IMG/VR virus record: IMGVR_UViG_3300045110_000277
Coordinates: 22,080-86,079 of that record
Origin: a virus
Length of the DNA: 64,000 nucleotides
Strand: one strand, 5' to 3'
Position numbers and translations under genes: made by a program. Each line of letters opens with the position of its first letter. Position 1 is the stretch's first letter. Below are positions 89 through 26,235 of the stretch, one piece after another. The notes under the pieces were generated by a model. The model was not told where the DNA came from. It made no database searches and worked only from the letters and a program-made list of their open reading frames with translations.

Positions 89-328
89 ATGAGCGGCGAG
101 GAACGTGAGTTCGACCCGGATGACCCGTCCAAGATCATGCGGGTGTACCTGAGCAAGGTCGAGAACGGCGTGGAGTCCACCGCCGAGATCTCCGTCCCGG
201 GCCCCTACCACCCCGAGATCCTCGAAGACCTGTGCCGCAAGGCGCTGATCACCCTGGGCGGCATCTTCTCCGAGGAGGAGACCGCCGACTACCTCCAGGA
301 GATGTTCGACGAAGATCCGGCGCCCTAG
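89..328 (+). CDS. Small acidic hypothetical protein
   Basis: GGAGG RBS, GC3-rich codons. Confidence 0.7.
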   Translation: MSGEEREFDPDDPSKIMRVYLSKVENGVESTAEISVPGPYHPEILEDLCRKALITLGGIFSEEETADYLQEMFDEDPAP

Positions 329-338
329 CCGCCGAAGA
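312..338 (+). promoter_or_regulatory. Candidate sigma28/WhiG-type late promoter
   Basis: AAGA-N15-GCCGAAGA upstream of ORF 390. Confidence 0.5.
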
Positions 339-389
339 CCTCGGTACTGCACCTGCCGCCCCCTGCAAAGGGCACACCGAGGAGACCCG

Positions 390-920
390 ATGGCCAGCAC
401 GAAGCTGAAGCCCCGCAACGACCACGAGGAGATCTGGGAGGTCCAGATCCCCGGCACGATCTACCTGCAGGTCACCACCCACAACCGGCACGGCCAGTCG
501 ATGGACGCCGACCTGGCGCTGGGCCCGAACAAGGTCGGCCACCAGTTCCGCATCTCCGACGCCGACCGGGTGATGAACCAGGAGCGCATCCAGGACTCGA
601 TCAACGACCCGTTCACCAACGGGATGCTGATCCGCTGCGACGCCGACCAGCAGGCCGACGAGGACACCGCCTCCGACCAGGCGCTGTCGGCCGCCGACCT
701 GACGCTGATCTTCGACCAGCACGGCGCGGTGTTCGAGAACGCCATCCGCCCGCTCGGCGAGATCAACCTGCGCCGGCTGCTGGACATCGGCTCGGCGATG
801 GACGCCTCCCACAAGCAGATCGAGACCTTGGAGGAGCTGATCCGCGAGCGGTACGGCAAGGGCGGGGCGCAGGACCTCGACCAGGCCCAGCTGCTGTCAG
901 GCGGGCTGCTCCCCGGCTGA
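390..920 (+). CDS. Hypothetical protein (virion module)
   Basis: GAGGAG RBS, clean codon bias. Confidence 0.8.
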   Translation: MASTKLKPRNDHEEIWEVQIPGTIYLQVTTHNRHGQSMDADLALGPNKVGHQFRISDADRVMNQERIQDSINDPFTNGMLIRCDADQQADEDTASDQALSAADLTLIFDQHGAVFENAIRPLGEINLRRLLDIGSAMDASHKQIETLEELIRERYGKGGAQDLDQAQLLSGGLLPG

Positions 921-994
921 GACCTGCGGGGGGCCGCTGGCTGCCGCACCTGGGCGATGCAGGCGCCCGACCGCGACCGAGCCGCGGCCCCCCG

Positions 995-1021
995 CAGATA
1001 CCCCACCCCTGCAGCCGATGA
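995..1021 (+). promoter_or_regulatory. Candidate sigma28/WhiG-type late promoter
   Basis: CAGA-N15-GCCGATGA upstream of ORF 1054. Confidence 0.55.
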
Positions 1022-1053
1022 CCTGATCAGACCGCTCCAGGGAGGACCGCCTG

Positions 1054-1833
1054 ATGACCGAGACCGTGCCGCACATCCGCATCACCGTCGGCAACTCGTC
1101 GCCGCACGAGCTGTTCGACCACGACCCGGAGAACCTCGGGGACCAGTACCGTCTCCAGGTCCGCGGTGGCGAGGTCATCTCGACCCCGGACGGCGAGCCG
1201 GACATCCACCGGGTGCCGCTGGAGCTGGGCAACAACACGGTCATCGAGTGGCCGCACGAGTCGCCCATCGACCACCTGCTGCCGACCATCAAGCAGCTGT
1301 GGGGCAAGCACTCCGCCGACCCGGGCACCTGGGTGGTCATCGAGAACGACGGCGACGACCCGGCTCGCGCGGCCTTGGTGAAGGCGCTCCTGGAGGCGTA
1401 CTTCAACATCCGGCAGCCGGACCCGGGCGAGATCACCGCGCTGGTGACCAACGCGGGCCTGGACTTCATCGCCAAGCAGCTCTCGGGCGGCACGGCGTCG
1501 GCGACAGCGGTGGCGAAGTGGATGGCCCTGACGGCCAACGCCTCGGCGGCGTCCGCCTCGGACACCACGCTGACCGCGGAGATCGCCACCGGCGGCGGTG
1601 GCCTGATCCGCGCCGTGGCCACGTACGCACACACCGGCTCGGCGAGCACGTACACGCTGACCATCACGTACACGGCGAACGGCTCGGACTCCCTGCCGGT
1701 CACCATCGCCAAGATGGGCGTGTTCGACGCGGCCTCCACCGGCAACCTGGTCTACGAGACGCTGCTCTCGGCGACCGCCACGCTGACCGCCTCAGGTGAC
1801 CAGCTCACCGTGACGGAGACGGTCACGATCTGA
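1054..1833 (+). CDS. Putative virion fibre/collar-type structural protein
   Basis: C-terminal Thr/Ala-rich beta domain (LVTNAGLD...MGVFDAASTGNL...GDQLTVT) typical of phage fibre/collar proteins. Confidence 0.6.
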   Translation: MTETVPHIRITVGNSSPHELFDHDPENLGDQYRLQVRGGEVISTPDGEPDIHRVPLELGNNTVIEWPHESPIDHLLPTIKQLWGKHSADPGTWVVIENDGDDPARAALVKALLEAYFNIRQPDPGEITALVTNAGLDFIAKQLSGGTASATAVAKWMALTANASAASASDTTLTAEIATGGGGLIRAVATYAHTGSASTYTLTITYTANGSDSLPVTIAKMGVFDAASTGNLVYETLLSATATLTASGDQLTVTETVTI

Positions 1834-1835
1834 CC

Positions 1836-2192
1836 ATGGCGCTGATCCTGGCCGACCGGGTGAAGGACACGTCGACCACAACCGGGACCGGCACCCTGAC
1901 GCTGGCTAACAGCGCGCCCGCGGGCTTCCAGACCTTCGGGTCGGTGATGGCCGACGGGGACGTGTGTTGGTACGCCCTGGTCGACTCCTCGGGCGCGTGG
2001 GAGACCGGCATCGGCACGTACACGGCCAGCGGCACGCACCTGAGCAGGGACACGGTGTTCTCCAGCTCGAACGCGAACGCGCTGGTGAACATCGCGGCTG
2101 GCACCACGACCGTCTTCCTCACGATGCCGGCCAAGCAGGCCATGACCCAAGGCGTAGCCGTCGCAACCGCCCTCGGCTGGGCCGGAAACTAG
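1836..2192 (+). CDS. Putative fibre-associated virion protein
   Basis: ADRVKDTSTTTGTGTLTL...WETGIGTY...LSRDTV..SSN motif common in phage fibre N-termini. Confidence 0.65.
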   Translation: MALILADRVKDTSTTTGTGTLTLANSAPAGFQTFGSVMADGDVCWYALVDSSGAWETGIGTYTASGTHLSRDTVFSSSNANALVNIAAGTTTVFLTMPAKQAMTQGVAVATALGWAGN

Positions 2193-2201
2193 GAGCTGAG
2201 C

Positions 2202-2657
2202 ATGGCCGCCAACCAGAGCCCGATCTTCACTCTGACGCCGAAGATCGGTCGCAAGGCGTGGACCTCCTCGACGACGGCGAACACCAAGTCCGACGGCGCG
2301 GGCACCATCGGCACCGACATCCTGCTGGTGTTCACCGGCGGCACCAACGGATCGTTCCTGAACCGGGTGCGGCTGTCCCCGTACGCCTCGGCCGCGGGCA
2401 CCGCGACCACCCCGACCGTCGCGCGGCTGTACCTGTCGACGCAGACCTCCTCGACGACAACGGCCGCTGACACCTCGCTGTTCGCGGAGGCGGCCTGCCC
2501 GGCCCAGACCGCTGACCAGGCGACCACGGCGACGAACTTCATCGAGATCCCGTGCGGCTTCTACATCCCGTCCACGATCAGCCTGCTGGTGTCGATGCAC
2601 CACGCCGCAGCTGCCAACACCGGCTGGCAGTTCATCGCCTTCTACGGCGACTACTGA
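2202..2657 (+). CDS. Putative fibre-associated virion protein
   Basis: MAANxSPIF start and GDY end, a recurrent small structural family; RBS AGGAG. Confidence 0.6.
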   Translation: MAANQSPIFTLTPKIGRKAWTSSTTANTKSDGAGTIGTDILLVFTGGTNGSFLNRVRLSPYASAAGTATTPTVARLYLSTQTSSTTTAADTSLFAEAACPAQTADQATTATNFIEIPCGFYIPSTISLLVSMHHAAAANTGWQFIAFYGDY

Positions 2658-2663
2658 GCCGCC

Positions 2664-3584
2664 GTGTTCGAGGACTACCTGGACGTTCTCGGCCAGTCCC
2701 GGGCGGACGTGCAGCTGTTCAAGGCCGGGGCCAACGCGCAGACGTGGCGCAAGCCCCGCGGCGCGCAGATGCTGCACATCGTGCTGTTCACCGCTGGTGG
2801 CGGTGGCGGCGGTGGGATGACCGGCCTGACGGCGACGGTGCGCGGTGGTGGCGGTGGCGGCGGCGGCGGCGCGATCATCCAGGCGATCATCCCGCTGTAC
2901 TACCTGCCTGACGTGCTGTACCTGTCGGTGCCCCGTGGTGGCGCGGGTGGCGCGGCGACGGTGAACGGCTCGGCAGGCAGCATCCAGTCGCTGGTGTTGA
3001 CCAACAACGTGACGCCCGCGGCTCCGGCGGGAAGCGACATCGTGCTCGGTGGCCAGGCCGGCTTCCTCGGCGCCGGGGGTACGGCCGGCTCTACGGGCGG
3101 CTCGGCGTCCGGTGGCTCGGGTGCGGGCGCTTCCAACGCCAACGGCGGCTGGGCGGTGATGGGCATCCGCAGCTTCCTGGCTGGCGGGAACGGCGGCGCG
3201 GGCGGTGTGGTCGGTGGCGGTGCGGGCACGGGCCTCACCATCGCCGGTGCGTCGCCGTACCGGATCTTCGGCGGCGCTGGCGGGGCGACAACGCCCGCTG
3301 GCAACAACGACTTCGCCGGCGGCGGCTTCACCGGCGCGGGCCTGTTCCCCAGCACGGCAGGCGGCACGGCCGGTGGCGGCAAGGGCGACGGGTCCCCGGC
3401 CTACTTCAACGGCTCCCTGGTCGTCTACGGCGGCACGGGTGGCGGCTCAGCGGGCGCTGGGACCGGCGGCGACGGTCAGGACGGTGGGTACCCGGGCGGC
3501 GGTGGTGGCGGCGGTGGCGGCGGCATCACGGGCGGCAAGGGCGGCAAGGGCGGCGACGGGCTCACGATAATGATTGCCTGGTGA
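2664..3584 (+). CDS. Glycine-rich virion protein, paralogue 1
   Basis: Poly-Gly blocks; ends GGDGLxxxxW. Confidence 0.8.
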   Translation: MFEDYLDVLGQSRADVQLFKAGANAQTWRKPRGAQMLHIVLFTAGGGGGGGMTGLTATVRGGGGGGGGGAIIQAIIPLYYLPDVLYLSVPRGGAGGAATVNGSAGSIQSLVLTNNVTPAAPAGSDIVLGGQAGFLGAGGTAGSTGGSASGGSGAGASNANGGWAVMGIRSFLAGGNGGAGGVVGGGAGTGLTIAGASPYRIFGGAGGATTPAGNNDFAGGGFTGAGLFPSTAGGTAGGGKGDGSPAYFNGSLVVYGGTGGGSAGAGTGGDGQDGGYPGGGGGGGGGGITGGKGGKGGDGLTIMIAW

Positions 3585-3588
3585 GCTG

Positions 3589-4527
3589 ATGTTCCTCGAC
3601 GCGATGGACGCACCGCCGTTCAACCTCGGCGCCAGCGACCTGCAGGTGTTCAAGGCGCAGGCGCCGGGCACCCAGGTCTGGCAACAGTGGCAGCGCCGAC
3701 GCGGCGACACCATGTGCATGATCACCTGCCTGGGCGCGGGCGGCTCTGGTGCGGGCGGCATGACCGGTGCGACCGGCTCGGTCCGCGGTGGCGGTGGCGG
3801 TGGTGGCAGCGGAGCGGTCGCCCGGCTGCTCATCCCGGTCTTCTTCCTGCCCGACACGCTGTTCATCAACGTGGGCAAGGGCGGGGCCGCGGTCGCCGCG
3901 GTTGCCGCGGGGAACCCGGGCAGTCTCAGCTACGTCAGCGTGGCCCCGAACACCACCGCGACCAACATCCTGCTGCAGTCCGGCGCGGCGGCAGCTACGG
4001 CGGCCACGGCGGGCTCCACGGGCGGCTCGGCGGCTGGCGGGGCGGCGGAGACCATCTCCACCATCGCGCTGTGCCTGCTGGCGAACCTGGGCATCGTGGA
4101 GTTCGCGGCCGGGCGGGCGGGGGCCATCGGCGGGGTGGTCGGCGGCGGGGCGGGCACCGCGATCACGTGGAACGCGGCGACGTACCCGATCCAGTCCGGC
4201 TCGGGTGGCGGGACCACGCCGGCGGCCAACAGCCAGTTCGCCGGCGGGGCCCAGACCGGCTCCGGCTTCACGCTGCCAACGGTCGCTGGCGGCGCGTCTG
4301 GTGGCAACCCGGGCGACGGCACCATGGGCCCGCCGAACAACGGGGTCGGTGGGTGGGCCTCCTACGGCGGCGTCGGTGGTGGCACCGGCGGGGCCGCCGG
4401 TCAGGTCGGTGGCAAGGGTGCAGACGCCGCGGGGTACGGCGGTGGCGGTGGCGGTGGAGGCGGTGGCGTGACCGGCGGTGGCGGTGGGGCCGGAGGCGAC
4501 GGCCTGGTCACCATCGTCAGCTGGTAG
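3589..4527 (+). CDS. Glycine-rich virion protein, paralogue 2
   Basis: Same architecture as 2664 and 4563; ATG at 3589. Confidence 0.8.
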   Translation: MFLDAMDAPPFNLGASDLQVFKAQAPGTQVWQQWQRRRGDTMCMITCLGAGGSGAGGMTGATGSVRGGGGGGGSGAVARLLIPVFFLPDTLFINVGKGGAAVAAVAAGNPGSLSYVSVAPNTTATNILLQSGAAAATAATAGSTGGSAAGGAAETISTIALCLLANLGIVEFAAGRAGAIGGVVGGGAGTAITWNAATYPIQSGSGGGTTPAANSQFAGGAQTGSGFTLPTVAGGASGGNPGDGTMGPPNNGVGGWASYGGVGGGTGGAAGQVGGKGADAAGYGGGGGGGGGGVTGGGGGAGGDGLVTIVSW

Positions 4528-4528
4528 C

Positions 4529-4555
4529 CAGATGACCCTTCCGCCGAGCCGATAG
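4529..4555 (+). promoter_or_regulatory. Candidate sigma28/WhiG-type late promoter (possibly leaderless)
   Basis: CAGA-N15-GCCGATAG, 7 nt before ATG 4563. Confidence 0.6.
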
Positions 4556-4562
4556 GACGAGC

Positions 4563-5462
4563 ATGTACCAGGACCACTTCGGCTTCCCGCCGCCAGCTCC
4601 TGGGGACACGCAGGTCTTCCGCGCCGGACCGATCTGGGACACCTGGCACAAGCGTCGCGGCGACACGATGCTGTACATCGTCGCCTTCGGCTCGGCCGGC
4701 GGCGGGGGCGGCGGCAAGACCAACGCCATCGGCAACGCGCGAGGCGGCGGCGGCGGGGGCGGCTCGGGCGCCATCATGCGCCTGCTCATCCCGCTCTACC
4801 TGGTGCCCGACATCCTGTACGTCTTCGTCGGCCGGGGCGGCGCCGGTGGCACGCCGGGTAACCCGGGCTCCTCGGGCGACTTCAGCCTGGTCAGCTTCCA
4901 GCCGTCCACCTCGCTCGACGTGCTGGTCAAGACCGGGAACGCGGTGGCCGGCGGCGGGGCGGCCGGCACGACCGGCTCCAACGCTGGTGGCTCGGCCGGC
5001 ACCATCGCCACGCTGGCGAACTGCCCGATGGCCGCCTTCGGCATGGCCAACTTCATCGCCGGGAAGATCGGTGCGGCGTCCGGCGCGAGCACCGGTGCGG
5101 CCGGGCTCAACAACACCATCGCCACCACGCACCAGCTGAACGGCGGTGCGGGCGGCGGCACCACGCCCACCGGCAACACCGAGTTCGCGGGCGGCGACCA
5201 GACCGGGGCGGGCATCTTCCCGACGGTCACCGGCGGCGCGGGTGGCGGCAACCCTGGGCCCGGGGCGGGCGGACTGCTGCTGGACCGCCCGTTCATGTCC
5301 TACGGCGGCTCAGGCGGTGGCACGGGCGGCGCGGCAGCGACCGTTGGCGGCCGTGGTGGAAACGGTGCCGTCGGCTCCGGCGGTGGCGGCGGTGGCGGGG
5401 GTGTCACCGGCGGGACCGGTGGCTCCGGCGGCGACGGCCTCGTGCTGATGACGAGCTGGTGA
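4563..5462 (+). CDS. Glycine-rich virion protein, paralogue 3
   Basis: Same architecture as the two preceding genes. Confidence 0.8.
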   Translation: MYQDHFGFPPPAPGDTQVFRAGPIWDTWHKRRGDTMLYIVAFGSAGGGGGGKTNAIGNARGGGGGGGSGAIMRLLIPLYLVPDILYVFVGRGGAGGTPGNPGSSGDFSLVSFQPSTSLDVLVKTGNAVAGGGAAGTTGSNAGGSAGTIATLANCPMAAFGMANFIAGKIGAASGASTGAAGLNNTIATTHQLNGGAGGGTTPTGNTEFAGGDQTGAGIFPTVTGGAGGGNPGPGAGGLLLDRPFMSYGGSGGGTGGAAATVGGRGGNGAVGSGGGGGGGGVTGGTGGSGGDGLVLMTSW

Positions 5463-5465
5463 GCC

Positions 5466-7355
5466 GTGGCCTTCGGCGGCGATAGCGCCTTCTCCGAGTA
5501 CCCGTTCGCCGCACAGGCGGCCGGGCAGCAGCTCACGCGCACCACTTCTGACGACGCGACGGTCAGCGACTCGGTGGCGCGCTCTGTGGTCCTCGCGCGC
5601 ACTACGTCGGACGCGGTGGGCTCCATCGCGGCCGTTCCAGCCAACGCGACGATCATCATGGGCGCGGCTGGCTGGATTACCAGCGGCACCGGCAACAGCC
5701 ACCCCATCGTGATGACCATTCCGGCCGGGGCCCGGGTCAACGACCGGGTGTACATGGCGTTCGGCGAGAACGGTGGCGTCGCCATTCCCGTTCCGACCGG
5801 GTGGCGGCCGATCCTGGTTCCCGCTGCGTACAACGGCAACATCCTCAGCTGCGCCATCTTCGAGCGGGACGCGCTGCTCGGGGTGGGCGAGGCTGGCTCC
5901 ACGGTCACCGTCGACATCGGCCAGAGCCGGGTGCAGATCGGCGTGATCTTCACCAGCGACGGCGACCTGGACGCGGTGAGCGCGGTCAGCAACCAGACCT
6001 CGCTGCAGTCCACGAACACGGTGCCCGCGGTCACCCCGGTCACTGACAACGCGCTGCTGCTGGAGATCGCGTTCCTGGTCTCCACCACGAACGCCCAGAC
6101 GTACACGAGCACGCCACCGACCGGCTACAGCACGCTGTTCGACCAATGCACCTCGAACGCGGGCGCGAACAAGAACATCGAGATCTTCATCGCCAGCAAG
6201 CAGCTGTCCGGCCAGAAGACGATCTCGCAGGGTCCGACCTTCTCCACCCCGTCGGTGCAGACAGAATCGGTGGTGGTGTCGCTGACGTTGACCCAGGCCG
6301 CCAAGGAGCGGGCGGTCGCCAACGTCGGCCGGTTCGCCTCGACCAGCGACAACGCCACGGTCAGCGAGACGGCGGTGCGCTCCGCCGAGGTGTACGCCCG
6401 CACGACCGCCGACAGCGTGCCCGTCAGCGAGAGCCTGGCCCGTACTGCACAGGTGTTCAGCCGCACCACGAGTGACTCGGTGGTGGTCTCCGAGGCGCTG
6501 TCCAGCCACGTCACGGTGGCCCGCACCACGGCCGACTCCGTGGTGGTCAGCGAGGCCGCGGTCCGCTCCGCTGACAACTACTCGCGCACGGCCTCCGAGA
6601 CTGCCACGGTCTCCGAGACGGTTGCCCGGTCGCTGCTGCAGGCTCGCGCCCCGTCGGACGCCGTGTCCGTCTCGGACACCACCACCCGCGTGGTCGCCCA
6701 GTCCCGTACTACCTCGGACAACGCCACGGTCTCCGACGTGGCCTCCGGCGTCATCGGCGGCAACCTGCACCTCACGCGCACCGCGTCGGACTCGATCAGC
6801 ACCAGCGAGTCGGTGGCCCGGATCGTCGTCCTGCCCCGCGCGGTGGCCGCTTCGGTGCCCGTCAGCGAGAGCCTGGCCCGCACCGCGCAGGTCTTCGCCC
6901 GGTCCACCTCGGACAGCGTGGCCGTCGTCGAGTCGGCGACCCGCTCGGCCGAGGTCTTCGCTCGCACGAGCTCGGACAGCGTGCCGGTCTCGGATGCCAA
7001 CGCTCGTTCGCAGCATGACTTCAGGTCGACTGGGGAGTCGGTCCCGGTCAGTGAGGCGGCGACTCGGGCTTCCCAGGCGTTCGCCCGGACGACGGCCGAC
7101 ACCGCCGTGGGAGCCGCCTCGGTCTCCTCGCACACCGCCGCGTCGCGCACCACGTCGGACTCGTTCGCGGTCGGCACCAGCACGCCCACCCCGGTGTACG
7201 TGCCGTCCATCAAGGATCCGGAGATCGAGGAGGCCGGCGCCCTGGTTGGCGTCACCACCACGGGCGTGGTGCTCGGCGTGACCACCACGAGCGTGCTGCT
7301 CGCATCGCCCACGCTCGGCGCCGATATCGACCCCATCGACACGATGACTCGCTGA
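5466..7355 (+). CDS. Repeat-containing fibre/stalk protein
   Basis: About 16 copies of a ~19-aa RTTSDSVxVSExxxR repeat around a globular insert. Confidence 0.75.
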   Translation: MAFGGDSAFSEYPFAAQAAGQQLTRTTSDDATVSDSVARSVVLARTTSDAVGSIAAVPANATIIMGAAGWITSGTGNSHPIVMTIPAGARVNDRVYMAFGENGGVAIPVPTGWRPILVPAAYNGNILSCAIFERDALLGVGEAGSTVTVDIGQSRVQIGVIFTSDGDLDAVSAVSNQTSLQSTNTVPAVTPVTDNALLLEIAFLVSTTNAQTYTSTPPTGYSTLFDQCTSNAGANKNIEIFIASKQLSGQKTISQGPTFSTPSVQTESVVVSLTLTQAAKERAVANVGRFASTSDNATVSETAVRSAEVYARTTADSVPVSESLARTAQVFSRTTSDSVVVSEALSSHVTVARTTADSVVVSEAAVRSADNYSRTASETATVSETVARSLLQARAPSDAVSVSDTTTRVVAQSRTTSDNATVSDVASGVIGGNLHLTRTASDSISTSESVARIVVLPRAVAASVPVSESLARTAQVFARSTSDSVAVVESATRSAEVFARTSSDSVPVSDANARSQHDFRSTGESVPVSEAATRASQAFARTTADTAVGAASVSSHTAASRTTSDSFAVGTSTPTPVYVPSIKDPEIEEAGALVGVTTTGVVLGVTTTSVLLASPTLGADIDPIDTMTR

Positions 7356-7364
7356 GAGGCTGCG

Positions 7365-7727
7365 ATGACCGTCCAGACCGTCCACATGAAGCAGAACGAC
7401 CTGCTTCCGCAGCTCCAGGCGACCCTGACCAGCACCGACCCGATCACGGGCGTGGTGTCCAACGTCGACCTGACCACGGCCACGTTGATCCACTTCTACA
7501 TGAAGAACGCGATCAGCGGACTGAAGGTCTCGGCGCTGGCGGTGCGCGCGGTGGACCAGTCGGTCGACACCGGGCAGGTCACGTACACCTGGCAGGGCAC
7601 CGACACCGACACGGCCGGGAAGTTCCAGGGCGAGTTCGAGGTGGTCTGGGCGAGCGGTAAGCGGGAGACGTTCCCGAACGACAGCTACTTCATCATCAAC
7701 ATCCACGCCGACCTCGGGAACGCCTGA
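7365..7727 (+). CDS. BppU-like (baseplate upper N-terminal domain) protein
   Basis: MKQNDLLPxLQATL...GQVTYTW...DTDTAG.F.GEFEV.W..G..ETFPN signature. Confidence 0.7.
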   Translation: MTVQTVHMKQNDLLPQLQATLTSTDPITGVVSNVDLTTATLIHFYMKNAISGLKVSALAVRAVDQSVDTGQVTYTWQGTDTDTAGKFQGEFEVVWASGKRETFPNDSYFIINIHADLGNA

Positions 7728-7747
7728 TGGCGCAGAACTTGCGCCAC

Positions 7748-7774
7748 CAGTTCCCTGCCGTCCCGAGCCGATGA
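7748..7774 (+). promoter_or_regulatory. Candidate sigma28/WhiG-type late promoter (possibly leaderless)
   Basis: CAGT-N15-GCCGATGA, 7 nt before ATG 7782. Confidence 0.6.
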
Positions 7775-7781
7775 GGAAGCC

Positions 7782-8330
7782 ATGACCACACTCGCTCCGC
7801 TGATCCCGGCGCTCAAGCGCGAGGTGTCAGGACCCGGTGAGTTCGACGCCGACTTCCCGTCCTCCGACGACGGCGAGCTGCTCGGCGGACTCGCGGATGC
7901 CTTCGGCCAGGCCCAGCTCGACGGCTTCTTCGGCACGGTCACTCTCGACCTGGTGACGGTGGAGACCGACAAGGACCTGAGCATCGCCGCACAGCAGCTG
8001 GTGGTCATCTACGCGGGCGAGCGCATCCTGCGCAGCAAGCTCCGCAACCTGAACACCAAGACGCTGTACAAGGCTGGCGGCGTGGAGTACGCGACGGAGA
8101 ACAGCGCCGGCGCGATCACCCAGCTGCTCAAGGACATCCAGGCGCGCAAGCAGCAGCTGCTCGACCAGATCCTGCGGATCGGCCGGGCGCAGAACGCGGT
8201 CCACGTCACCGACGGCTACCTGATCCGCAGCCAGGGCTACTTCCCGCTGGGGATGTGGGGCGAGTTCGGCGGGTTCTTCGGCTACGAGATCGGCGGCCTC
8301 GGCGGCTCGATGACTGGCCTTCTGTTCTGA
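7782..8330 (+). CDS. Putative head-to-tail adaptor
   Basis: Size, helical character, KAGGVEY motif, position ahead of tail genes. Confidence 0.55.
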   Translation: MTTLAPLIPALKREVSGPGEFDADFPSSDDGELLGGLADAFGQAQLDGFFGTVTLDLVTVETDKDLSIAAQQLVVIYAGERILRSKLRNLNTKTLYKAGGVEYATENSAGAITQLLKDIQARKQQLLDQILRIGRAQNAVHVTDGYLIRSQGYFPLGMWGEFGGFFGYEIGGLGGSMTGLLF

Positions 8331-8360
8331 GACGTGCGACGACGCGAGGCGGTGAGGTAG

Positions 8361-8807
8361 ATGGCGAACCCTGGGATCTCGGGCTTCGACGCTGCTGCCG
8401 TGCGCGCTGGGCTCCGTCTGGCCATGCAGGTGGGGCTGCCCATCACGGCGTCCGAGCGGCCGACCTTCTTCATGCCGCAGACCGTCACCGCCACCGGCCA
8501 CAACCTGGACGGCTCCAAGGTGCCGTTCGACCCGACGGTGCAGCCCACCAGGTCCGCGCGCCAGACGCACCAGGTGCCGTGCGCCATCGAGTACGCCGAT
8601 GGCACCGGGAAGATTGCGGCGCTCGGGATCATCGACCCGGCGACCGTGGTGCTGACGCTGCTCGACGAGGACTACGCGACCGTGCGGGGCTTCGAGTTCG
8701 TCGTCATCACCGGCCAGAAGTTCTTCTACCGCAGCACGGAGCCGGGCCAGGGCCTGGTGGATGTGGGCATCTGGCGCGTCCGCTGCGTCTCGGAGGATGA
8801 GGGATGA
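8361..8807 (+). CDS. Putative head-to-tail stopper
   Basis: Synteny and size. Confidence 0.45.
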   Translation: MANPGISGFDAAAVRAGLRLAMQVGLPITASERPTFFMPQTVTATGHNLDGSKVPFDPTVQPTRSARQTHQVPCAIEYADGTGKIAALGIIDPATVVLTLLDEDYATVRGFEFVVITGQKFFYRSTEPGQGLVDVGIWRVRCVSEDEG

Positions 8808-9343
8808 GCTACATCCGCGGCCAGGAGCGCATGGTCATCCAGACGACCATCGACTACGTGACGGCCAGCCTGACCACGCTGGGCTGGTTCCTGACGGCCG
8901 GCTCGCTGCCGTACGGCGCGCAGTACCCGGTGCAGATCGTCGACGACCTGCCCGACCTGGAGAAGGCCATCGCGCCGAACACCGTGTCCATCGTGGAGGG
9001 CAAGACCCTCGACGACGAGCCTGGCGAGCTGGGTGCGTCCGGTGGCGGTCTACACCTGACCAAGCAGGTCATCTTCGTGGACGTGTTCGGCGAGAACATC
9101 GGCATGGCCAAGGCCATCGCCGCCGACGTGCGCGCGATCCTGACCGGCAAGCTGGACAGCCCGGTGACCAGCCGCTTCCAGGTGCTCAAGGACTACTCGG
9201 TCAACCCCGCGGTGGGCACGACCGCGCTGATCGAGTACCAGGACATCGAGATGGACCGCCCGCTCAACCAGGAGTTCCAGAAGACCTGGATGACGCTGCA
9301 CGTCACCGCGGAGCTCCAGTGGACGGGGCACGAGCACTCGTGA
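8804..9343 (+). CDS. Putative tail terminator
   Basis: Synteny; IFVDVFGEN...AKAIAADVRAIL pattern. Confidence 0.5.
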   Translation: MSYIRGQERMVIQTTIDYVTASLTTLGWFLTAGSLPYGAQYPVQIVDDLPDLEKAIAPNTVSIVEGKTLDDEPGELGASGGGLHLTKQVIFVDVFGENIGMAKAIAADVRAILTGKLDSPVTSRFQVLKDYSVNPAVGTTALIEYQDIEMDRPLNQEFQKTWMTLHVTAELQWTGHEHS

Positions 9344-9630
9344 GCGCAGGCAGCTACGCGCAGAAGGTGGCGGTCGAGCAGCGCAAGCGGCTCGTCGGCT
9401 CGGTCATGGCCATGGTCGAGCGGGACGTGTACCCGCACCTGCCAGCGGACGTTCGCACCGCCTTCAGGAACAAGCTGCTGCAGTCCGTCGGGGTCTACCA
9501 CGACTTCGTGCTGGACAGCCTGAAGGCCGCCATCGAGGACAGCGACACCACGCTGAACGAGGCGGTCATCGAGGCCCTCGGTGAGCTGGCCAACGAGACC
9601 CGGATGCTGCGCGAGCTGAGGGAGGGCTGA
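9340..9630 (+). CDS. Hypothetical protein
   Basis: GTG overlapping the previous stop; codon bias. Confidence 0.7.
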   Translation: MSAGSYAQKVAVEQRKRLVGSVMAMVERDVYPHLPADVRTAFRNKLLQSVGVYHDFVLDSLKAAIEDSDTTLNEAVIEALGELANETRMLRELREG

Positions 9631-10445: not shown

Positions 10446-10452
10446 CCGGGCC

Positions 10453-10479
10453 AAGTTCGATCCCCGACTCCGCCGAAAC
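10453..10479 (+). promoter_or_regulatory. Candidate sigma28/WhiG-type late promoter for the major tail gene
   Basis: AAGT-N15-GCCGAAAC then AAGGAGG RBS. Confidence 0.55.
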
Positions 10480-18420: not shown

Positions 18421-18426
18421 CCGCCG

Positions 18427-20886: not shown

Positions 20887-22181
20887 CGCAGCGGTGGACG
20901 TTCCTGGACCCCGACAACGGCGTCGTGGAGTACGTGTTCGAGCGCAACCCGAAGCAGGTCGGCTCGCCGTACCCGAACAAGAAGCTCGACACGTTGAGCA
21001 CCGGTGCCACCGCGACGCCGAACATCCGCGGGTTGAAGCAGCCGGACACCCCGGTCGAGTGGTCGTTCACCGGCACCCTGGCCAGCCAGGCGATGTACGA
21101 CCAGCTGCTGTCGTGGTCGGCGGTGCGCAAGCTCGTGCAGGTCATCGACGACCTGGGCCGCACGTACAACATCCTGCCGACCGGCGTGGAGTTCTCCGAC
21201 CGCGCGCCGACTCCGCGGCACCCGGTGCGCTACGAGTACACCTTCAAGGCGTTGCTGTTCCCGACGCTGGTCACGCCCAACCCGGTAGCCATCGACCAGC
21301 CGGTGTTTGTCGGGCGCCCCATCCTCGACCCGCCGTCGTACGTGCCGTCCGACCCGAGCCTGCCGACCCCGCCGGAGACCACGCCGGGCACGCCGGTGCC
21401 GCCCGTCACGCCGCCGACGCCGCCCGGAGCGGACGCCACGATCAAGTGGGGCTCGGCCTTCGGCTCGAACCTGTCCTGGCAGCTGACCAACTTCCCGGCA
21501 GCCAAGAGCGCGCGGCACTTCACCACGCCGATCACGCTGTACAGCAGCAGCTCGGCCAGTCACCGGATGCCGACGCCCGCGGAGATCTGGGAGTCGGCCA
21601 AGCCCGACCCGGCGTCGGTGATCAACGGCTCGATGAACAGCCTCATCGACGCCTGGATCGCCAGCTGGACCCGCGACGTGGTGCTCACCTTCTGGCACGA
21701 GCCCGAGCAGGGCCAGCCCAACTACCGGGTACCGCCGGCCACCTGGGTACCGATGCAGCGGGTGCTGCTCGCTCGCGTCGCCGCGGTGGGCAACTCGCAC
21801 GTGAAGACCGCGGGCATCCTGATGAGCTACACGCTGAGCTTTGGCAACAGCCGGGTCGACTCGTACTTCAAGCCCAGCGGCACGCTGATCGGCTTCGACT
21901 ACTACGCCTTCGACTGCTACAAGCCGGCGCACACGATCCTGGCGATGAACTGGGCGCAGAGCAACGGCGTCGCCTGGGCCATCCCGGAGTGGGGCACCAG
22001 CACCGGCCCTGGTGGGGACGCGGACACCAAGGCGCAGCTGATCCAGATGGTCTCCGACGTGTCGGGTTACAAGCCGCACGCAGTCATGTACTTCGACGCC
22101 CCGGTCGGCCCGCACCTGAGCCCCCTGCTGATCAACGCTCCGCTGACCGACTCGTACCTGAAGGGACTGGCCGGCCCATGA
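20883..22181 (+). CDS. Distal-tail-like protein fused to a GH26-like domain
   Basis: N-terminal tail domain, Pro/Thr linker, then FWHEPE, FDYYAFDCY, IPEWG. Confidence 0.6.
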   Translation: MTQRWTFLDPDNGVVEYVFERNPKQVGSPYPNKKLDTLSTGATATPNIRGLKQPDTPVEWSFTGTLASQAMYDQLLSWSAVRKLVQVIDDLGRTYNILPTGVEFSDRAPTPRHPVRYEYTFKALLFPTLVTPNPVAIDQPVFVGRPILDPPSYVPSDPSLPTPPETTPGTPVPPVTPPTPPGADATIKWGSAFGSNLSWQLTNFPAAKSARHFTTPITLYSSSSASHRMPTPAEIWESAKPDPASVINGSMNSLIDAWIASWTRDVVLTFWHEPEQGQPNYRVPPATWVPMQRVLLARVAAVGNSHVKTAGILMSYTLSFGNSRVDSYFKPSGTLIGFDYYAFDCYKPAHTILAMNWAQSNGVAWAIPEWGTSTGPGGDADTKAQLIQMVSDVSGYKPHAVMYFDAPVGPHLSPLLINAPLTDSYLKGLAGP

Positions 22182-24355: not shown

Positions 24356-24783
24356 TGGCCTTCGACGCTTGGCGTCACCTCAAGGACGTGGGTGACAGCG
24401 ACGACCGGCACCGGGAGAACAGCTCGCGGCTGGCGCACGCCTACATCCGCACCGACTCCACCGGGTGGGGCGAGGTCACCTACGACAACCCGTTCGTGTT
24501 CGGCGTGCGGTTCATCGACAAGCCGTACGTGGCCTACAGCTTCGACGTGGACGACACCACCGACGTGGTGGACACCCGGTACCCGCGGGCGTGCGGGTTC
24601 ATCTACCGCTGGCAGATCGACTCCCGCGGCTTCTACACCGGGGCGTACATGGCGGTCACTGTGGACGACCAGTCCACGTTCATCACCGCGGTCGGCGACA
24701 GCCCGAACTACCTGCTGCACCACCACTTCTCCTTCTCGGGCATCGCCATGAAGTCGGTGCCCGACTACCTGGCGCAGGGCTAG
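24355..24783 (+). CDS. Minor tail protein
   Basis: Translationally coupled; beta-rich. Confidence 0.55.
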   Translation: MAFDAWRHLKDVGDSDDRHRENSSRLAHAYIRTDSTGWGEVTYDNPFVFGVRFIDKPYVAYSFDVDDTTDVVDTRYPRACGFIYRWQIDSRGFYTGAYMAVTVDDQSTFITAVGDSPNYLLHHHFSFSGIAMKSVPDYLAQG

Positions 24784-24785
24784 CC

Positions 24786-25604
24786 GTGGTCTGGGGGCCG
24801 TGGCTTCCGTCGCCGCAGATCGTGGTGACGGCGACCATGCCGTGGGAGCAGGTGCAGGGCGCGGAGTCGTTCGTCCACCACGGCGACACCACCGTCGACC
24901 CGTTGCAGATCGGGTCGACGCAGGCTTCCGTGCAGGCGACCGGCGGGTCGGACGCGGCCTTTGAGTCGCCCAACTCGATGCCCGGCCTGGCCGTACCGTG
25001 GACCGCCACGATGTTGCAGGACTTCAGCTTCTTCACCATGTCGGTGACGTACTCGGTGGCCTACAACCGGGCCATCATCGACTGCTCGCCGACGTTGAAC
25101 AGCTACCCGACGCCGGACGACAACGCGGTCGGGGTGCTCGGCGACATCCAGATGCACGGGGGCACCGACACGTTCGTGGCGTGGCAGACCGGCTCGATGG
25201 ACTGGACCCCGCTGGTCGACTTCGGCGCGACGTTCGGGCTGCGGCTGCGCCAGACGCCCTACGTCAACGCCAGCTCGTTCTTCTGGGACCCCTACGACGA
25301 CACCGGTCGCTTCGCCGAGCTGACCGCCGCCGACGTGGTGGACATCCCGCCGTACCCCGCCGCCGACTTCTCGATCTGGTGCCAGCCCGCGTTCGACTAC
25401 TCCGCCATCAGCGAGTCCGACCTGGTGACCGTGTTCTCCGGGCTGGACGAGGCCGGCGGCTCGTGGGCGCTGAACAGCATCACCTTGCAGGCCGTGGTCC
25501 AGCCGCCCGACTACCGTCAATGGCTGGACCTGGTGCCCAACCTCAGCGGCGGCATCCAGCAGCCGGTCGTCCACTTCATCACCACGCGGAGGCGGCTCGG
25601 ATGA
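24786..25604 (+). CDS. Putative minor tail / receptor-binding protein
   Basis: GTG 24786; acidic, aromatic-rich. Confidence 0.5.
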   Translation: MVWGPWLPSPQIVVTATMPWEQVQGAESFVHHGDTTVDPLQIGSTQASVQATGGSDAAFESPNSMPGLAVPWTATMLQDFSFFTMSVTYSVAYNRAIIDCSPTLNSYPTPDDNAVGVLGDIQMHGGTDTFVAWQTGSMDWTPLVDFGATFGLRLRQTPYVNASSFFWDPYDDTGRFAELTAADVVDIPPYPAADFSIWCQPAFDYSAISESDLVTVFSGLDEAGGSWALNSITLQAVVQPPDYRQWLDLVPNLSGGIQQPVVHFITTRRRLG

Positions 25605-26149
25605 CGTACGACTGGTTCGACAACAGCACCTCTGGCGGCTTCGGCGACTACGGCATCTGCAGCGAGGGCGTCATCGAGCGCGGCTCGGGCGGTGCGCACA
25701 TCGGGCAGTTCACCGAGGGCATCTTCTTCGGGAACGGGACGCCAACGGCCCTTGTCGGCGGGGAGCGCGTCTGCCGGCCGCCGACCGGGACGGGGCACTT
25801 CCTGCGCCACCTGGTCGTGTGGTGGACCGACGCCTCGATGACCACCAGCGTGGACGGCACCCATGACCTGTACGACACCGACTACCTGAAGACGGTGGAC
25901 CCGGCGTACCCCACGGGTTACAGCGGCGACGACATCACCGCCAGCCTGACCGCGCCAGCCGGGGCCACGTACTGGTCGTGGGCCATCCTCGACGAGGGCC
26001 CGTACGACGGCAGCGGGACGACCAGCTCCGACCCGGGCTCGTACTCGCCGTACACCGCTGCTGATACCGCGGTGGCCCTCCTGAGCGCCTGCTCCGCGGC
26101 TCCCGATCTGTCGGGGTTCGTCCATGCGGGTGAAGTCCACTTCTCGTAG
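25601..26149 (+). CDS. Hypothetical virion protein
   Basis: ATGA overlap; C-terminus (PDLSG...VHF) resembles that of the preceding gene. Confidence 0.55.
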   Translation: MTYDWFDNSTSGGFGDYGICSEGVIERGSGGAHIGQFTEGIFFGNGTPTALVGGERVCRPPTGTGHFLRHLVVWWTDASMTTSVDGTHDLYDTDYLKTVDPAYPTGYSGDDITASLTAPAGATYWSWAILDEGPYDGSGTTSSDPGSYSPYTAADTAVALLSACSAAPDLSGFVHAGEVHFS

Positions 26150-26235
26150 GACCTCTGGCCGGTGTCAGATTCGCCCCGGCTGGGGACGATGGACACATGA
26201 GATGCGAACGCTCGTTGGCGGGGAGGAACTGGGTC

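What the first reader, a model, noticed from the sequence alone, without database searches (positions are those of the whole stretch)
312..26192. Sigma28/WhiG-type promoters precede virion genes: the captured sporulation sigma may be the late sigma
Seen: at short gene junctions the same spacing recurs: AAGA-N15-GCCGAAGA (312), CAGA-N15-GCCGATGA (995), CAGA-N15-GCCGATAG (4529), CAGT-N15-GCCGATGA (7748), AAGT-N15-GCCGAAAC (10453) and CAGA-N15-GACGATGG (26166). GCCGATAT (63) and GCCGATGA (41396, just after the sigma gene) have poorer -35 matches. Two sites end exactly 7 nt before an ATG, suggesting leaderless mRNA. Established: sigma28 promoters are TAAA-N15-GCCGATAA. Inference: late transcription depends on the phage WhiG-like sigma, or can also use host WhiG, which would tie virion production to host development.
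Basis: partly seen in the sequence, partly recalled or inferred. Interest (0 to 1): 0.82.

Follow-up and report, generated by a model that had tools for sequence, protein, structure and literature searches.

The report
Sigma-28-type late promoters in a soil phage
An uncultured soil phage of high-GC bacteria carries its own flagellar/sporulation-type sigma factor, and a matching two-part promoter-like signal sits in front of its late gene blocks, so the phage probably switches on particle production with its own sigma.

Summary
All six strings are at the stated coordinates. They are not chance. Both are intergenic, on the gene strand, 21 and 6 nt before gene starts; 0.009 such hits were expected there.

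Consensus of the 8 core sites: (C/A)AG(A/T)T-N14-GCCGA(T/A). The -10 half and the spacing are sigma-28/WhiG-like. The -35 half is not TAAA.

Related viral contigs carry similar boxes at the same gene junctions. These include a box exactly 7 nt before the start codon of one conserved gene in 3 of 7 relatives.

The record encodes one FliA/WhiG-family sigma. It is not a recent Streptomyces capture: it lies in its own clade, 48-53% identical to cellular homologues. The host is unknown.

Sigma-less relatives keep similar boxes, so a host sigma may also read them.

Nothing here shows transcription; no RNA run was listed. An earlier follow-up in this scan, on a neighbouring finding in this same DNA, reached the same reading of the sigma.

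Verdict: a real motif, most likely late promoters, and a new variant of the known phage-sigma strategy.

The parts
312..338 (+). Core site 1. -35-like AAGAT at 312-316, 14-nt gap, -10-like GCCGAAGA at 331-338. The -35 half lies in the last codons of gene 89-328. The next start codon, at 390, is 51 nt after the box.
   Evidence: 21.6-21.7 bits.
995..1021 (+). Core site 2. CAGAT at 995-999 and GCCGATGA at 1014-1021, 32 nt before the ATG at 1054. The 3' arm of a long hairpin (924-997) ends inside the -35 half.
4529..4555 (+). Core site 3. CAGAT follows the stop codon at 4525-4527 after one base. GCCGATAG at 4548-4555 is followed by exactly 7 nt and then the ATG at 4563 of a 299-aa tail-fibre-like gene. 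This is the geometry of a leaderless transcript.
   Evidence: PHROG tail-fibre and minor-tail hits, E 1.5e-6 to 3e-4.
7748..7774 (+). Core site 4. CAGTT and GCCGATGA at 7767-7774, then exactly 7 nt, then the ATG at 7782. The hairpin 7728-7746 ends 2 nt before the -35 half. A GAGGAAG Shine-Dalgarno-like string overlaps the box end.
   Evidence: The same arrangement of box, 7 nt and start codon precedes the orthologous gene in L007, L010 and L013.
10453..10479 (+). Core site 5. AAGTT and GCCGAAAC at 10472-10479, 20 nt before the ATG at 10500 of the 552-aa gene. That gene is tail-tube-like, which is a lead only. It has its own AAGGAGG ribosome site.
   Evidence: A two-block box lies upstream of the orthologue in 5 of 7 assessable relatives.
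26166..26192 (+). Core site 6 and the weakest -10. CAGAT and GACGATGG at 26185-26192, after the last large tail gene. A copy of the record-wide palindrome (about 26205-26222) lies just downstream. The likely start is the GTG at 26236, which has a GGAGGA ribosome site.
   Evidence: (19.4 bits).
63..70 (+). Doubtful site. A good -10-like box, GCCGATAT, lies 18 nt before the ATG at 89 and just after a terminator-like hairpin (1-41, then a T-rich tail) that follows the capsid-like gene. No phage-type -35 half sits at the right distance.
   Evidence: Not among the hits listed (lowest listed 11.6 bits).
41378..41403 (+). Candidate site with a spacer 1 nt shorter. GAGTT and GCCGATGA at 41396-41403, immediately after the sigma gene's stop codon and 41 nt before the next gene (41445).
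   Evidence: 15.8 bits, which is within the noise range by score, but the site is intergenic and on the gene strand.
40633..41379 (+). The only sigma-70-family gene of the record: 248 aa, FliA/WhiG (sigma-28) family, with regions 2, 3 and 4.
   Evidence: Pfam regions 2, 3 and 4. TIGR02479 scores 229.6 bits, above its 189.6 cut-off; the WhiG equivalog NF004935 scores 274.5, below its 343 cut-off; 6pfv, E 5e-67; one match in the record.

Best explanation
The eight core sites are promoters of the sigma-28 (FliA/WhiG) class that head the late transcription units of this phage. Six lie in the window. Two lie upstream of it, at record 4853 and 14957. Their consensus is (C/A)AG(A/T)T-N14-GCCGA(T/A)(G/A)N.

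Proposed course of events:
1. Host RNA polymerase with its housekeeping sigma first reads promoters of the TTGnnn-N16-18-TAnnnT type. These lie only in the non-structural blocks, one of which holds the phage sigma gene at 40633-41379.
2. The phage sigma then joins host core polymerase.
3. That holoenzyme starts transcription 7-8 nt downstream of each GCCGA box, in front of the portal-size gene, tail fibre, head-tail joining, tail tube and end-of-tail gene blocks. Two weaker sites with a shorter spacer would add the lysis cassette and the capsid block.
4. At three core sites (window 4529 and 7748, record 14957) the start would fall on the A of the start codon and give a leaderless mRNA.

Shown here: the motif, its orientation, its placement, its conservation in relatives, the family of the sigma, and the conservation of its DNA-contact residues.

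Inferred only: that the sites are promoters, that the phage sigma rather than a host sigma reads them, and the order in time.
For: Motif:
- 8 sites score 18 bits or more with a fixed spacer. All 8 are intergenic and on the gene strand, 6-51 nt before a start codon.
- Two of them were found out of sample.
- The two halves are coupled. Of the 18 GCCGA[AT] boxes that are intergenic and on the gene strand, 7 carry [CA]AG[AT]T at the fixed distance. The 8th core site has GACGA instead.
- GCCGAT[AG] on the gene strand is intergenic in 11 of 25 cases (binomial P 3e-5). On the opposite strand the figure is 3 of 51.

Setting:
- Hairpins end at or just before the -35 half at 924-997 and 7728-7746. This is the terminator-then-promoter layout.

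Geometry:
- In the solved P. aeruginosa sigma-28 open complex the -10 is GCCGATAA at -15 to -8 and TAAA sits 15 nt upstream (PMC12784957, passages). That is the phage spacing, and it puts +1 on the ATG at the 7-nt sites.

Sigma:
- It belongs to the FliA/WhiG family.
- The residues that make base contacts in that structure (R97, S224, Q228) are R97, S226 and Q230 in the phage protein. They are invariant in the 10-sequence alignment.

Relatives:
- In 8 related loci (137.6 kb, 8.1% intergenic), AG[AT]T-N14-GCCGA on the gene strand is intergenic in 4 of 4 cases. On the other strand it is intergenic in 0 of 4.
- Box, 7 nt and start codon precede the orthologue of gene 7782 in 3 of 7 relatives. A fourth has a one-mismatch box.
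- The record with the sigma has 8 matrix hits of 18 bits or more. Four larger sigma-less relatives have 0.

Two promoter classes:
- TTGnnn-N16-18-TAnnnT occurs 8 times, 8 of 8 intergenic. None lies between record 9,141 and 49,189, the structural block.
Against: - There is no transcript evidence: no RNA run holder was listed.
- The -35 half differs from every published sigma-28/WhiG consensus (TAAA; T(A/C)AA-N16; CTCA-N16-17).
- Four larger relatives lack any FliA/WhiG or sigma-70 region-2 match over the family cut-off (one, G007, has a sub-cut-off region-2 match of 20.4 bits). One of them, G005, is rated 100% complete by CheckV. They still carry similar boxes, so the phage sigma is not needed for such boxes to exist.
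- The comparison of 8 hits against 0 is one genome against four distant ones. Each relative may use its own variant of the motif.
- At 7748 a Shine-Dalgarno-like GAGGAAG overlaps the box. GCCGAGGA strings, which are ribosome sites, also pile up 6-7 nt before starts. The 7-nt distance is therefore partly confounded.
- The label 'late/virion genes' rests on weak hits: endolysin E 8e-36 is solid, but terminase is 1.9e-4, major head 1e-4 and tail fibre 1.5e-6. In one search, 0 of 10 proteins hit Pfam.
- The intergenic calls depend on my own codon-score gene caller.
Confidence: 0.6

Rival explanations
1. The sites are sigma-28-type promoters, but the host's own WhiG/FliA-family sigma reads them. 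The phage sigma would then be a back-up, a booster, or a tool aimed at host genes. Particle production would follow the host's developmental or motility state.
For: - Sigma-less relatives keep two-block boxes at the same junctions. They include G005 (104 kb, CheckV 100%). Its orthologue of gene 7782 is preceded by GAGTT-N14-GCCGATAG, then 7 nt, then GTG.
- A low-GC relative (L009) has a textbook TAAA-N15-GCCGATAT upstream of the tail-tube orthologue.
- WhiG1 and WhiG2 homologues are reported to recognise similar promoters and to substitute for each other in S. venezuelae (PMC13595943, passages).
Against: - The record that carries the sigma has by far the most and the best sites: 8 of 18 bits or more, against 0 in the four relatives.
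- Its -35 half differs from both published actinobacterial consensus forms.
- Host WhiG-type sigmas are normally held inactive by anti-sigmas. This is established for RsiG with c-di-GMP (PMC7005675, passages). That is a poor basis for a lytic programme.
- The host and its sigma set are unknown.
Confidence: 0.22
2. The motif is real and functional but is not a sigma-28 promoter. It could be the binding site of another phage or host protein, such as an activator or a different alternative sigma, or a processing signal that happens to contain GCCGA.
For: - The -35 half does not match TAAA.
- Extra GAGCAGAT copies lie upstream of the site at record 14957, and CAGATCAGAT lies at record 597. Such repeats could be protein-binding repeats.
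- Copies of a record-wide palindrome abut several sites, so other regulators act there.
Against: - The layout is that of sigma-dependent promoters: two short conserved blocks, a non-conserved spacer of fixed length, strict orientation, and a position 6-51 nt before start codons.
- The invariant CGA inside GCCGA is the hallmark of the sigma-28 family.
- A sigma of that family is encoded in the same record.
Confidence: 0.13
3. The sites are chance matches in GC-rich DNA in which GCCGA is frequent.
For: - GCCGA occurs 650 times in the record.
- The loose pattern is only 8 against about 4 expected.
- Single shuffle hits reached 22.7 bits.
Against: - 8 of 8 on the gene strand and 7 of 8 intergenic.
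- The refined pattern: 7 observed against 0.2 expected.
- Out-of-sample recovery of two sites, with 0.009 expected.
- Intergenic restriction repeated in independent related contigs.
Confidence: 0.03

Closest known systems
Sigma-28 (FliA / SigD / WhiG) promoters of bacteria, consensus TAAA-N15-GCCGATAA. In Actinomycetota the reported forms are T(A/C)AA-N16-GCCGATAA for WhiG2 and CTCA-N16-17-GCCGAACT for WhiG1 (10.64898/2026.01.14.699351 = PMC13595943, passages).
   Same: - GCCGA with an invariant CGA in the -10 half: 7 of 8 sites have GCCGA and 1 has GACGA.
- T or A after it.
- The 15-nt distance between the 4-mer and the box is the classical one.
- Read with a 17-nt spacer, the -35 4-mer ends in CA (5 of 8) or AA (3 of 8), like the last two letters of CTCA.
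- The three shorter-spacer candidates read CTCA, GTCA and CTGA at N16.
   Different: - No site has TAAA or T(A/C)AA.
- Only one candidate (record 597) has an exact CTCA.
- The conserved -35 core is AG(A/T)T.
- These promoters sit in a phage, before particle genes, not before flagellar or sporulation genes.
Phage-encoded sigma factors that switch host polymerase to middle or late phage promoters: Bacillus phage SPO1 gp28 and gp33/34, coliphage phiEco32 and Salmonella phage 7-11 sigma, T4 gp55. I saw abstracts only, in the search listings: PMC8948821, PMC12276001, PMC13401047, PMC2988020.
   Same: One phage-borne sigma, a set of matching phage promoters before late genes, and host-type promoters before the early genes.
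   Different: - Those sigmas are highly diverged or phage-specific.
- This one is a full three-domain member of the cellular sigma-28 family, about 50% identical to cellular WhiG/FliA.
- It reads, if at all, a -10 element shared with host regulons.
- My searches (and passages of 10.1101/2021.11.12.468384) found no report of a phage FliA/WhiG sigma or of sigma-28-type phage late promoters.
Streptomyces venezuelae WhiG held by RsiG and c-di-GMP (PDB 6pfv and 6pfj; PMC7005675, passages).
   Same: Best solved relative, E 5e-67, aligned over residues 2-244. The -10 reading segment DW.PRSVR.KAR is the same pattern.
   Different: - The phage protein lacks about 25 N-terminal residues.
- Of the three c-di-GMP contact residues (K57, G61, R62; PMC13595943, passages) the phage has R32, A36 and R37.
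- The glycine, said to tolerate no side chain, is alanine. Control by an RsiG-type anti-sigma is therefore doubtful; this is an inference.

Membership tests
Sigma-28 / WhiG-type promoter | -10 element GCCGA with an invariant central CGA | tested here: met
   8 of 8 core sites have CGA; 7 of 8 have GCCGA and 1 has GACGA. The criterion is taken from 10.64898/2026.01.14.699351.
Sigma-28 / WhiG-type promoter | -35 element TAAA (or T(A/C)AA, or CTCA in Actinomycetota) | tested here: not met
   TAAA-N14-16-GCCGA occurs 0 times in the record. The core sites read CAGA five times, AAGT twice and AAGA once. Only the candidate at record 597 has CTCA-N16.
Sigma-28 / WhiG-type promoter | Spacer of 15-17 nt between the -35 4-mer and the -10 8-mer | tested here: met
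   The spacer is 15 nt in 8 of 8 core sites. The P. aeruginosa fliC promoter has the same spacing.
Sigma-28 / WhiG-type promoter | Transcription starts 7-8 nt downstream of the box and depends on a sigma-28-family sigma | not testable with these tools
   No RNA run was listed. This needs 5'-end mapping and in vitro transcription.
FliA/WhiG family sigma factor (the gene at 40633-41379) | Score above the family model's curated cut-off, with regions 2, 3 and 4 | tested here: met
   TIGR02479 scores 229.6 bits against a cut-off of 189.6. Pfam regions 2, 3 and 4 are all above their cut-offs.
WhiG proper (Streptomyces-type, RsiG-controlled; WhiG2) | Score above the WhiG equivalog cut-off, placement inside the cellular WhiG clade, and the c-di-GMP contact glycine | tested here: not met
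   NF004935 scores 274.5 bits, below its 343 cut-off. The sigma lies in a 7-row clade (SH-aLRT 98) outside the 84-row cellular clade (a quick tree). G61 of the S. venezuelae protein is Ala36 here.
Phage sigma cascade (early host-type promoters, late phage-sigma promoters) | Two promoter classes divided between early and late gene blocks | tested here: inconclusive
   The division is seen. TTGnnn-N16-18-TAnnnT is intergenic in 8 of 8 cases and absent from the structural block. The GCCGA sites lie in the structural and lysis blocks. Timing itself is not testable here. The E. coli-style promoter scan was uninformative.

The most novel reading that the evidence does not exclude
A whole group of soil actinophages drives particle genes from sigma-28/WhiG-type promoters, several of them leaderless. 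Most members have no sigma gene and so must borrow the host's WhiG/FliA sigma. That sigma is released only when the host enters sporulation or motility, under c-di-GMP or another anti-sigma control. Their virion production would therefore be gated by host development. This phage has escaped the gate by carrying its own copy, which lacks the c-di-GMP contact glycine and so is probably insensitive to the anti-sigma.
Probability: 0.22. Interest if true: 0.82.

Novelty: new variant of a known kind. Interest (0 to 1): 0.6.

Why it matters
Phage-borne sigma factors that redirect host polymerase to late genes are classic. The known ones are phage-specific or highly diverged proteins.

Here a near-cellular member of the flagellar/sporulation sigma family appears to have been taken over for that job, together with promoters that keep the family's -10 signature. 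If confirmed, three things follow:
1. It would give a compact sigma-and-promoter pair for high-GC bacteria that may be orthogonal to host promoters.
2. It would give a natural test of how -35 specificity shifts within the sigma-28 family while the base-contact residues stay the same.
3. Through the sigma-less relatives, it would make testable the question of whether some actinophages tie their late genes to host development or motility signalling.

The limit is that the phage is uncultured and its host is unknown. The first tests would therefore have to be done in vitro or in a surrogate host.

Tried and rejected
- Cultured-phage relatives. Megablast of window 1-12000 found none. tblastn with the sigma and the 552-aa protein gave only distant hits.
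- RNA evidence. No RNA holder was listed. There were two DNA holders only, one of them probably the source sample.
- Closer sigma relatives.
  - The cluster look-up gave no names.
  - Scans of viral contigs, genome contigs and metagenome contigs returned only homologues of 54% identity or less.
  - The test of whether this sigma clade co-occurs with the motif therefore could not be run.
- Promoter and terminator scan. The E. coli-type scan found 0, 0 and 1 sigma-70-like sites and terminators at shuffle level. It is uninformative for this GC-rich DNA. I replaced it with my own folds and a TTGnnn/TAnnnT scan.
- Unbiased two-block word count. AGAT-N14-GCCGA and CAGA-N15-GCCGA came top (4 of 4 intergenic each). 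No single word survives correction for about 150,000 words.
- Unbiased 6- and 7-mer ranking. It places CAGATT, CCGATA and GCCGATA among the top 14, next to stop-codon, ribosome-site and palindrome words. This supports the motif but does not settle it.
- Variable-spacer scan. The background rises to 16.8 bits, so the shorter-spacer candidates (record 597 and 19897, window 41378) cannot be told from noise by score.
- Other viral contigs with sigma-28-family genes. The evidence is mixed. L032 has 13 GCCGAT[AT] boxes against 5.1 expected. L038 and L041 have GCCGATAA just upstream of their sigma gene. L023 has 0 boxes, and L027 and L034 have none that are intergenic.
- Function of the promoter-led genes. 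0 of 10 proteins hit Pfam. The ESM Atlas gave a tail-tube lead only.
- Rejected reading: a recent capture of Streptomyces whiG.
- Supplementary files of papers were not opened. Promoter tables in supplements of PMC13595943 and PMC7005675 may bear on the -35 comparison.

Full report
WHAT THE DNA IS

The window is the right-hand 64 kb (record positions 22080-86079) of an 86,079-bp IMG/VR virus record. The record is classed as linear, and CheckV rates it 74% complete. GC content is 66-74%. The only run holding all of its sampled words is a soil metagenome, probably the source sample.

No cultured phage is close. Megablast found nothing, and protein searches gave only distant hits.

I called genes with my own codon-score method, and every 'intergenic' statement below depends on it. 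Genes run on the + strand from record 661 to 64800 and on the - strand from 64900 to 85460. By these.2% of the record is intergenic.

THE OBSERVATION

All six strings are at the stated coordinates with a 15-nt spacer. The two extra boxes, at 63 and 41396, are also there. The boxes at 4529 and 7748 each end exactly 7 nt before an ATG.

IS IT MORE THAN CHANCE?

- GCCGA alone is frequent: 483 in the window and 650 in the record.
- Its placement is not random: 8 of 8 on the gene strand and 7 of 8 intergenic.
- The base after the 4-mer is T in every case. [CA]AG[AT]T-N14-GCCGA[AT] occurs 7 times against 0.17-0.23 expected.
A matrix from the six window sites was scanned over both strands of the whole record.
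  - Its best non-training hits were record 4851 (20.2 bits) and 14955 (19.6 bits).
  - Both lie outside the window, are intergenic and sit on the gene strand. By they are 21 and 6 nt before gene starts.
  - The next hits scored 15.1 and then 10.8 bits.
  - A position-independent model expects 0.009 hits of 19.5 bits or more in that 22-kb part.
- Against this, second-order Markov shuffles of the whole record gave 0.91 hits of 15 bits or more per shuffle, and once a hit of 22.7 bits. A single hit means little; eight of 18 bits or more do.
- The -10 word alone is also placed non-randomly. GCCGAT[AG] on the gene strand is intergenic in 11 of 25 cases (P 3e-5), against 3 of 51 on the other strand.
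- Unbiased two-block and k-mer counts put words of this motif at or near the top, but without formal significance after correction.
- With a variable spacer the background rises to 16.8 bits. The candidates with a spacer 1 nt shorter therefore remain candidates. They are record 597 before the endolysin cassette, record 19897 before the capsid block, and window 41378 after the sigma gene.

ANATOMY

The eight core sites have this composition:

| Position | Content |
|---|---|
| -35 half, letter 1 | C in 5, A in 3 |
| -35 half, letters 2-3 | A and G in all 8 |
| -35 half, letter 4 | A in 5, T in 3 |
| -35 half, letter 5 | T in all 8 |
| Gap | 14 unconserved, C-rich bases |
| -10 half, letter 1 | G in all 8 |
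| -10 half, letter 2 | C in 7, A in 1 |
| -10 half, letters 3-5 | C, G and A in all 8 |
| -10 half, letter 6 | T in 5, A in 3 |
| -10 half, letter 7 | G in 5, A in 3 |

The distance from the end of the box to the next start codon is 6, 7, 7, 20, 21, 32, 43 and 51 nt.

Hairpins end at or just before the -35 half at 924-997 and 7728-7746. A terminator-like hairpin (1-41, followed by a T-rich tail) follows the capsid-like gene. This is the layout of gene, then terminator, then promoter, then gene.

In the solved P. aeruginosa sigma-28 open complex the -10 is GCCGATAA at -15 to -8, and the -35 is TCTAAAG at -36 to -30 (PMC12784957, passages). The phage 4-mer therefore occupies the TAAA position with the same 15-nt spacer. 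A box followed by 7 nt places +1 on the A of the ATG. Three core sites (window 4529 and 7748; record 14957 with 6 nt) would then give leaderless mRNAs, which is an inference.

One caveat applies. At 7748 a GAGGAAG ribosome-site-like string overlaps the box. Plain GCCGAGGA ribosome sites also pile up 6-7 nt before starts.

WHAT THE SITES PRECEDE

| Gene (coordinates) | Evidence |
|---|---|
| Record 804-1577 | Endolysin, E 8e-36 |
| Record 12856-14487 | Large terminase, weak, 1.9e-4 |
| Record 21080-22054 | Major head protein, weak, 1e-4 |
| Window 4563-5462 | Tail fibre or minor tail, 1.5e-6 to 3e-4 |
| Window 10500-12158 (552 aa) | Resembles phage tail-tube clusters in the ESM Atlas; a lead only |
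| Window 10500-12158 (552 aa) | Short match to 'major tail protein' genes of Microbacterium phages |

Otherwise the proteins are orphans: 0 of 10 hit Pfam. A 1,521-aa gene of tape-measure size follows the tube gene.

'Virion genes' is thus mostly an argument from gene order and size. The core sites lie before these blocks:
- an 89-aa gene and a virion-protein-like gene (record 4853);
- the block holding a portal-size 597-aa gene (record 14957);
- the genes at window 390 and 1054;
- the tail-fibre-like gene (4563);
- a conserved five-gene block (7782);
- the tube-like gene (10500);
- two small genes after the last large tail genes (26236).

THE SIGMA

The record has one sigma-70-family gene, at window 40633-41379.

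- It scores above the FliA/WhiG family cut-off but below the WhiG equivalog cut-off.
- Its best solved relative is S. venezuelae WhiG, E 5e-67.
- The residues that make base contacts in the P. aeruginosa complex (R97, S224, Q228) align with phage R97, S226 and Q230. I read the +5 chain offset from the alignment. These residues are invariant in the 10-sequence alignment.
- Its closest database relatives are five unnamed proteins of 248-255 aa, 60-72% identical. In the alignment they, like it, lack the N-terminal extension of cellular homologues.
- Cellular homologues from Acidimicrobiia, Geodermatophilaceae, Frankiales, Streptomyces and others are all 48-54% identical.
- In a quick maximum-likelihood tree of 109 rows (no rows removed; several long viral branches flagged), the window's sigma sits in a clade of 7 (SH-aLRT 98). 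That clade lies outside the 84-row cellular clade, which contains all 17 Kitasatosporales.
- It is therefore not a recent capture from Streptomyces, and the host is unknown.
- Of the three c-di-GMP contact residues of S. venezuelae WhiG (K57, G61, R62; PMC13595943, passages) the phage has R32, A36 and R37. The glycine said to allow no side chain is alanine. This suggests, by inference, freedom from an RsiG-type anti-sigma.

RELATIVES

The 552-aa protein found nine viral contigs, 41-60% identical. L005 and L006 show the same sequence in the 120 nt upstream of that gene, so I counted them once. The gene order from window 7782 to 13156 is kept in them.

- Tail-tube orthologue. A two-block box lies upstream in 5 of 7 assessable loci.

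  | Locus | Box | Distance before the start |
  |---|---|---|
  | L007 | CAGT-N15-GCCGACAT | about 20 nt |
  | L008 | GAGT-N14-GCCGAAAC | about 27 nt |
  | L009 (47% GC) | TAAA-N15-GCCGATAT | 92 nt |
  | L010 | GAAA-N15-GCCGAAGG | about 116 nt |
  | L013 | CAGA-N15-GCCGAAGC | about 52 nt |

  L011 has a box without a -35 match, L005 has none, and L012 is cut off.
- Orthologue of gene 7782. A box, exactly 7 nt and then an in-frame start codon are found in L007, L010 and L013. L005 has CCCGACAT, 7 nt and then ATG. L008, L009 and L011 have nothing of the kind.
- Pooled count. Over 137.6 kb of eight loci (8.1% intergenic), AG[AT]T-N14-GCCGA on the gene strand is intergenic in 4 of 4 cases. On the other strand it is intergenic in 0 of 4.
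- Sigma genes in the relatives. None of the nine contigs has a FliA/WhiG match; one, G007, has a weak partial hit to the sigma's N-terminal part (E 9e-6, query residues 3-84). Most are fragments. Four larger records were also searched with the region-2 and FliA/WhiG family models. G007 gave a region-2 match below the cut-off (20.4 bits, E 3.5e-5); the other three, which include G005 (104 kb, CheckV 100%), gave none, and none of the four matched the FliA/WhiG model.
- Matrix hits. The four larger records have 0 hits of 18 bits or more against 8 in this record. They have 0-3 hits of 15 bits or more, and only those of G005 and G009 are at junctions.

This cuts two ways. The many strong sites go with the sigma gene. 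But the promoter type exists without it, so a host sigma may serve in the relatives.

A SECOND PROMOTER CLASS

TTGnnn-N16-18-TAnnnT occurs 8 times in the record, all 8 intergenic and 0 in genes. The sites are at record 3856, 8521 and 8773, and at window 27211, 27636, 43401, 52881 and 59699. None lies inside the structural block.

The + strand block that begins after window 27636 contains the sigma gene. This fits an order of early host-sigma transcription followed by late phage-sigma transcription. The order itself is an inference.

COMPARISON WITH WHAT IS KNOWN

The sites work like sigma-28/WhiG promoters in the -10 half and in spacing. They fail the -35 criterion: TAAA-N14-16-GCCGA occurs 0 times.

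The published actinobacterial forms are T(A/C)AA-N16 and CTCA-N16-17. Read with a 17-nt spacer, the phage 4-mers end in CA or AA. The three shorter-spacer candidates read CTCA, GTCA and CTGA at N16. The nearest published form is therefore the flagellar WhiG1 type, but only loosely.

The strategy is that of phage sigma cascades (SPO1, phiEco32, 7-11, T4). For these I saw only the abstracts listed.

I found no report of a phage FliA/WhiG sigma or of sigma-28-type phage late promoters. This rests on the searches. It also rests on passages of 10.1101/2021.11.12.468384, which does not mention FliA or WhiG. Subscription journals and supplementary files were not covered.

EARLIER NOTES OF THIS SCAN

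A follow-up on a neighbouring finding in this same DNA already read the sigma as probably running the phage's late genes (e1-6113055). First-reader notes describe palindromes that abut these promoters (e1-6113048) and a possible escape from the anti-sigma (e1-6113047). I checked the sigma family, the glycine change and three palindrome adjacencies myself.

VERDICT

The motif is real. It is most likely a set of late promoters of a sigma-28-like class (about 0.8 for a sigma-28-class promoter of either reader). The phage's own sigma is the likeliest reader (0.6), and a host sigma is a live alternative (0.22). The links to 'sporulation' and 'Streptomyces' are not supported. This is a new variant of a known kind, and I score its interest at 0.6.

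Noticed in passing
Window about 12175, 13382, 26205, 32690, 38510, 39730, 57535, 62500 and 63430; record about 150, 560, 5180, 8640, 11420, 14900, 19850 and 19880: A palindrome of about 16-18 bp, of the form GC(C/G)AACG-NN-CGTT(C/G)GC, recurs in at least 15 intergenic regions on both arms. Two tandem copies end just before the -35 half of the candidate capsid-block site. One copy lies about 12 nt after the box at 26166. A similar palindrome sits directly before the -35 half in the related contig L007. It looks like an operator for a regulator that acts on some of these promoters.
   Followed up: partly
Record 3856, 8521 and 8773; window 27211, 27636, 43401, 52881 and 59699: TTGnnn-N16-18-TAnnnT, the housekeeping-sigma type, occurs 8 times in the record. 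All 8 are intergenic, all lie outside the structural block, and several lie at the heads of the non-structural gene blocks.
   Followed up: partly
Window 40633-41379, residue 36 of the sigma: The glycine of S. venezuelae WhiG that packs against c-di-GMP (G61) is alanine here. It is A, V or L in 5 of the 7 sequences of the sigma's own clade. The three cellular sequences in the same alignment keep glycine. This suggests independence from an RsiG-type anti-sigma.
   Followed up: partly
Record 14905-14960 and 590-606 (upstream of the window): Three copies of GAGCAGAT lie within about 50 nt upstream of the portal-block site, and only the last is at promoter distance. A tandem CAGATCAGAT lies at the lysis-cassette candidate. 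These may be spare -35 halves or binding repeats.
   Followed up: no
L032:11635-14733; L038:7821-7844 and 9874; L041:9960 and 11988; L037:12104: Unrelated lower-GC viral contigs carry their own sigma-28-family genes and also show GCCGATA-type boxes. Two in L032 read TAAA-N15-GCCGATAC. L038 and L041 have GCCGATAA just upstream of the sigma gene. Several boxes lie 7 nt before a called start. L023, L027 and L034 show none that are intergenic. Phage sigma-28 systems may be more widespread.
   Followed up: partly
G005 (L045-L050): 9156, 30347, 46771, 79193 and 99821: In the sigma-less, reportedly complete relative, 5 of the 26 GCCGA boxes that lie within 60 nt of a called start are exactly 7 nt from it, and none of these five contains a ribosome-site string. 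One of them reads TAAC-N16-GCCGACAC.
   Followed up: no
Window 2664-7355: Several consecutive genes between the capsid and tail blocks are glycine-rich, with GGC/GGT-rich runs encoding poly-Gly or collagen-like stretches. They share internal DNA repeats (one search found 69-92% matches among them).
   Followed up: no
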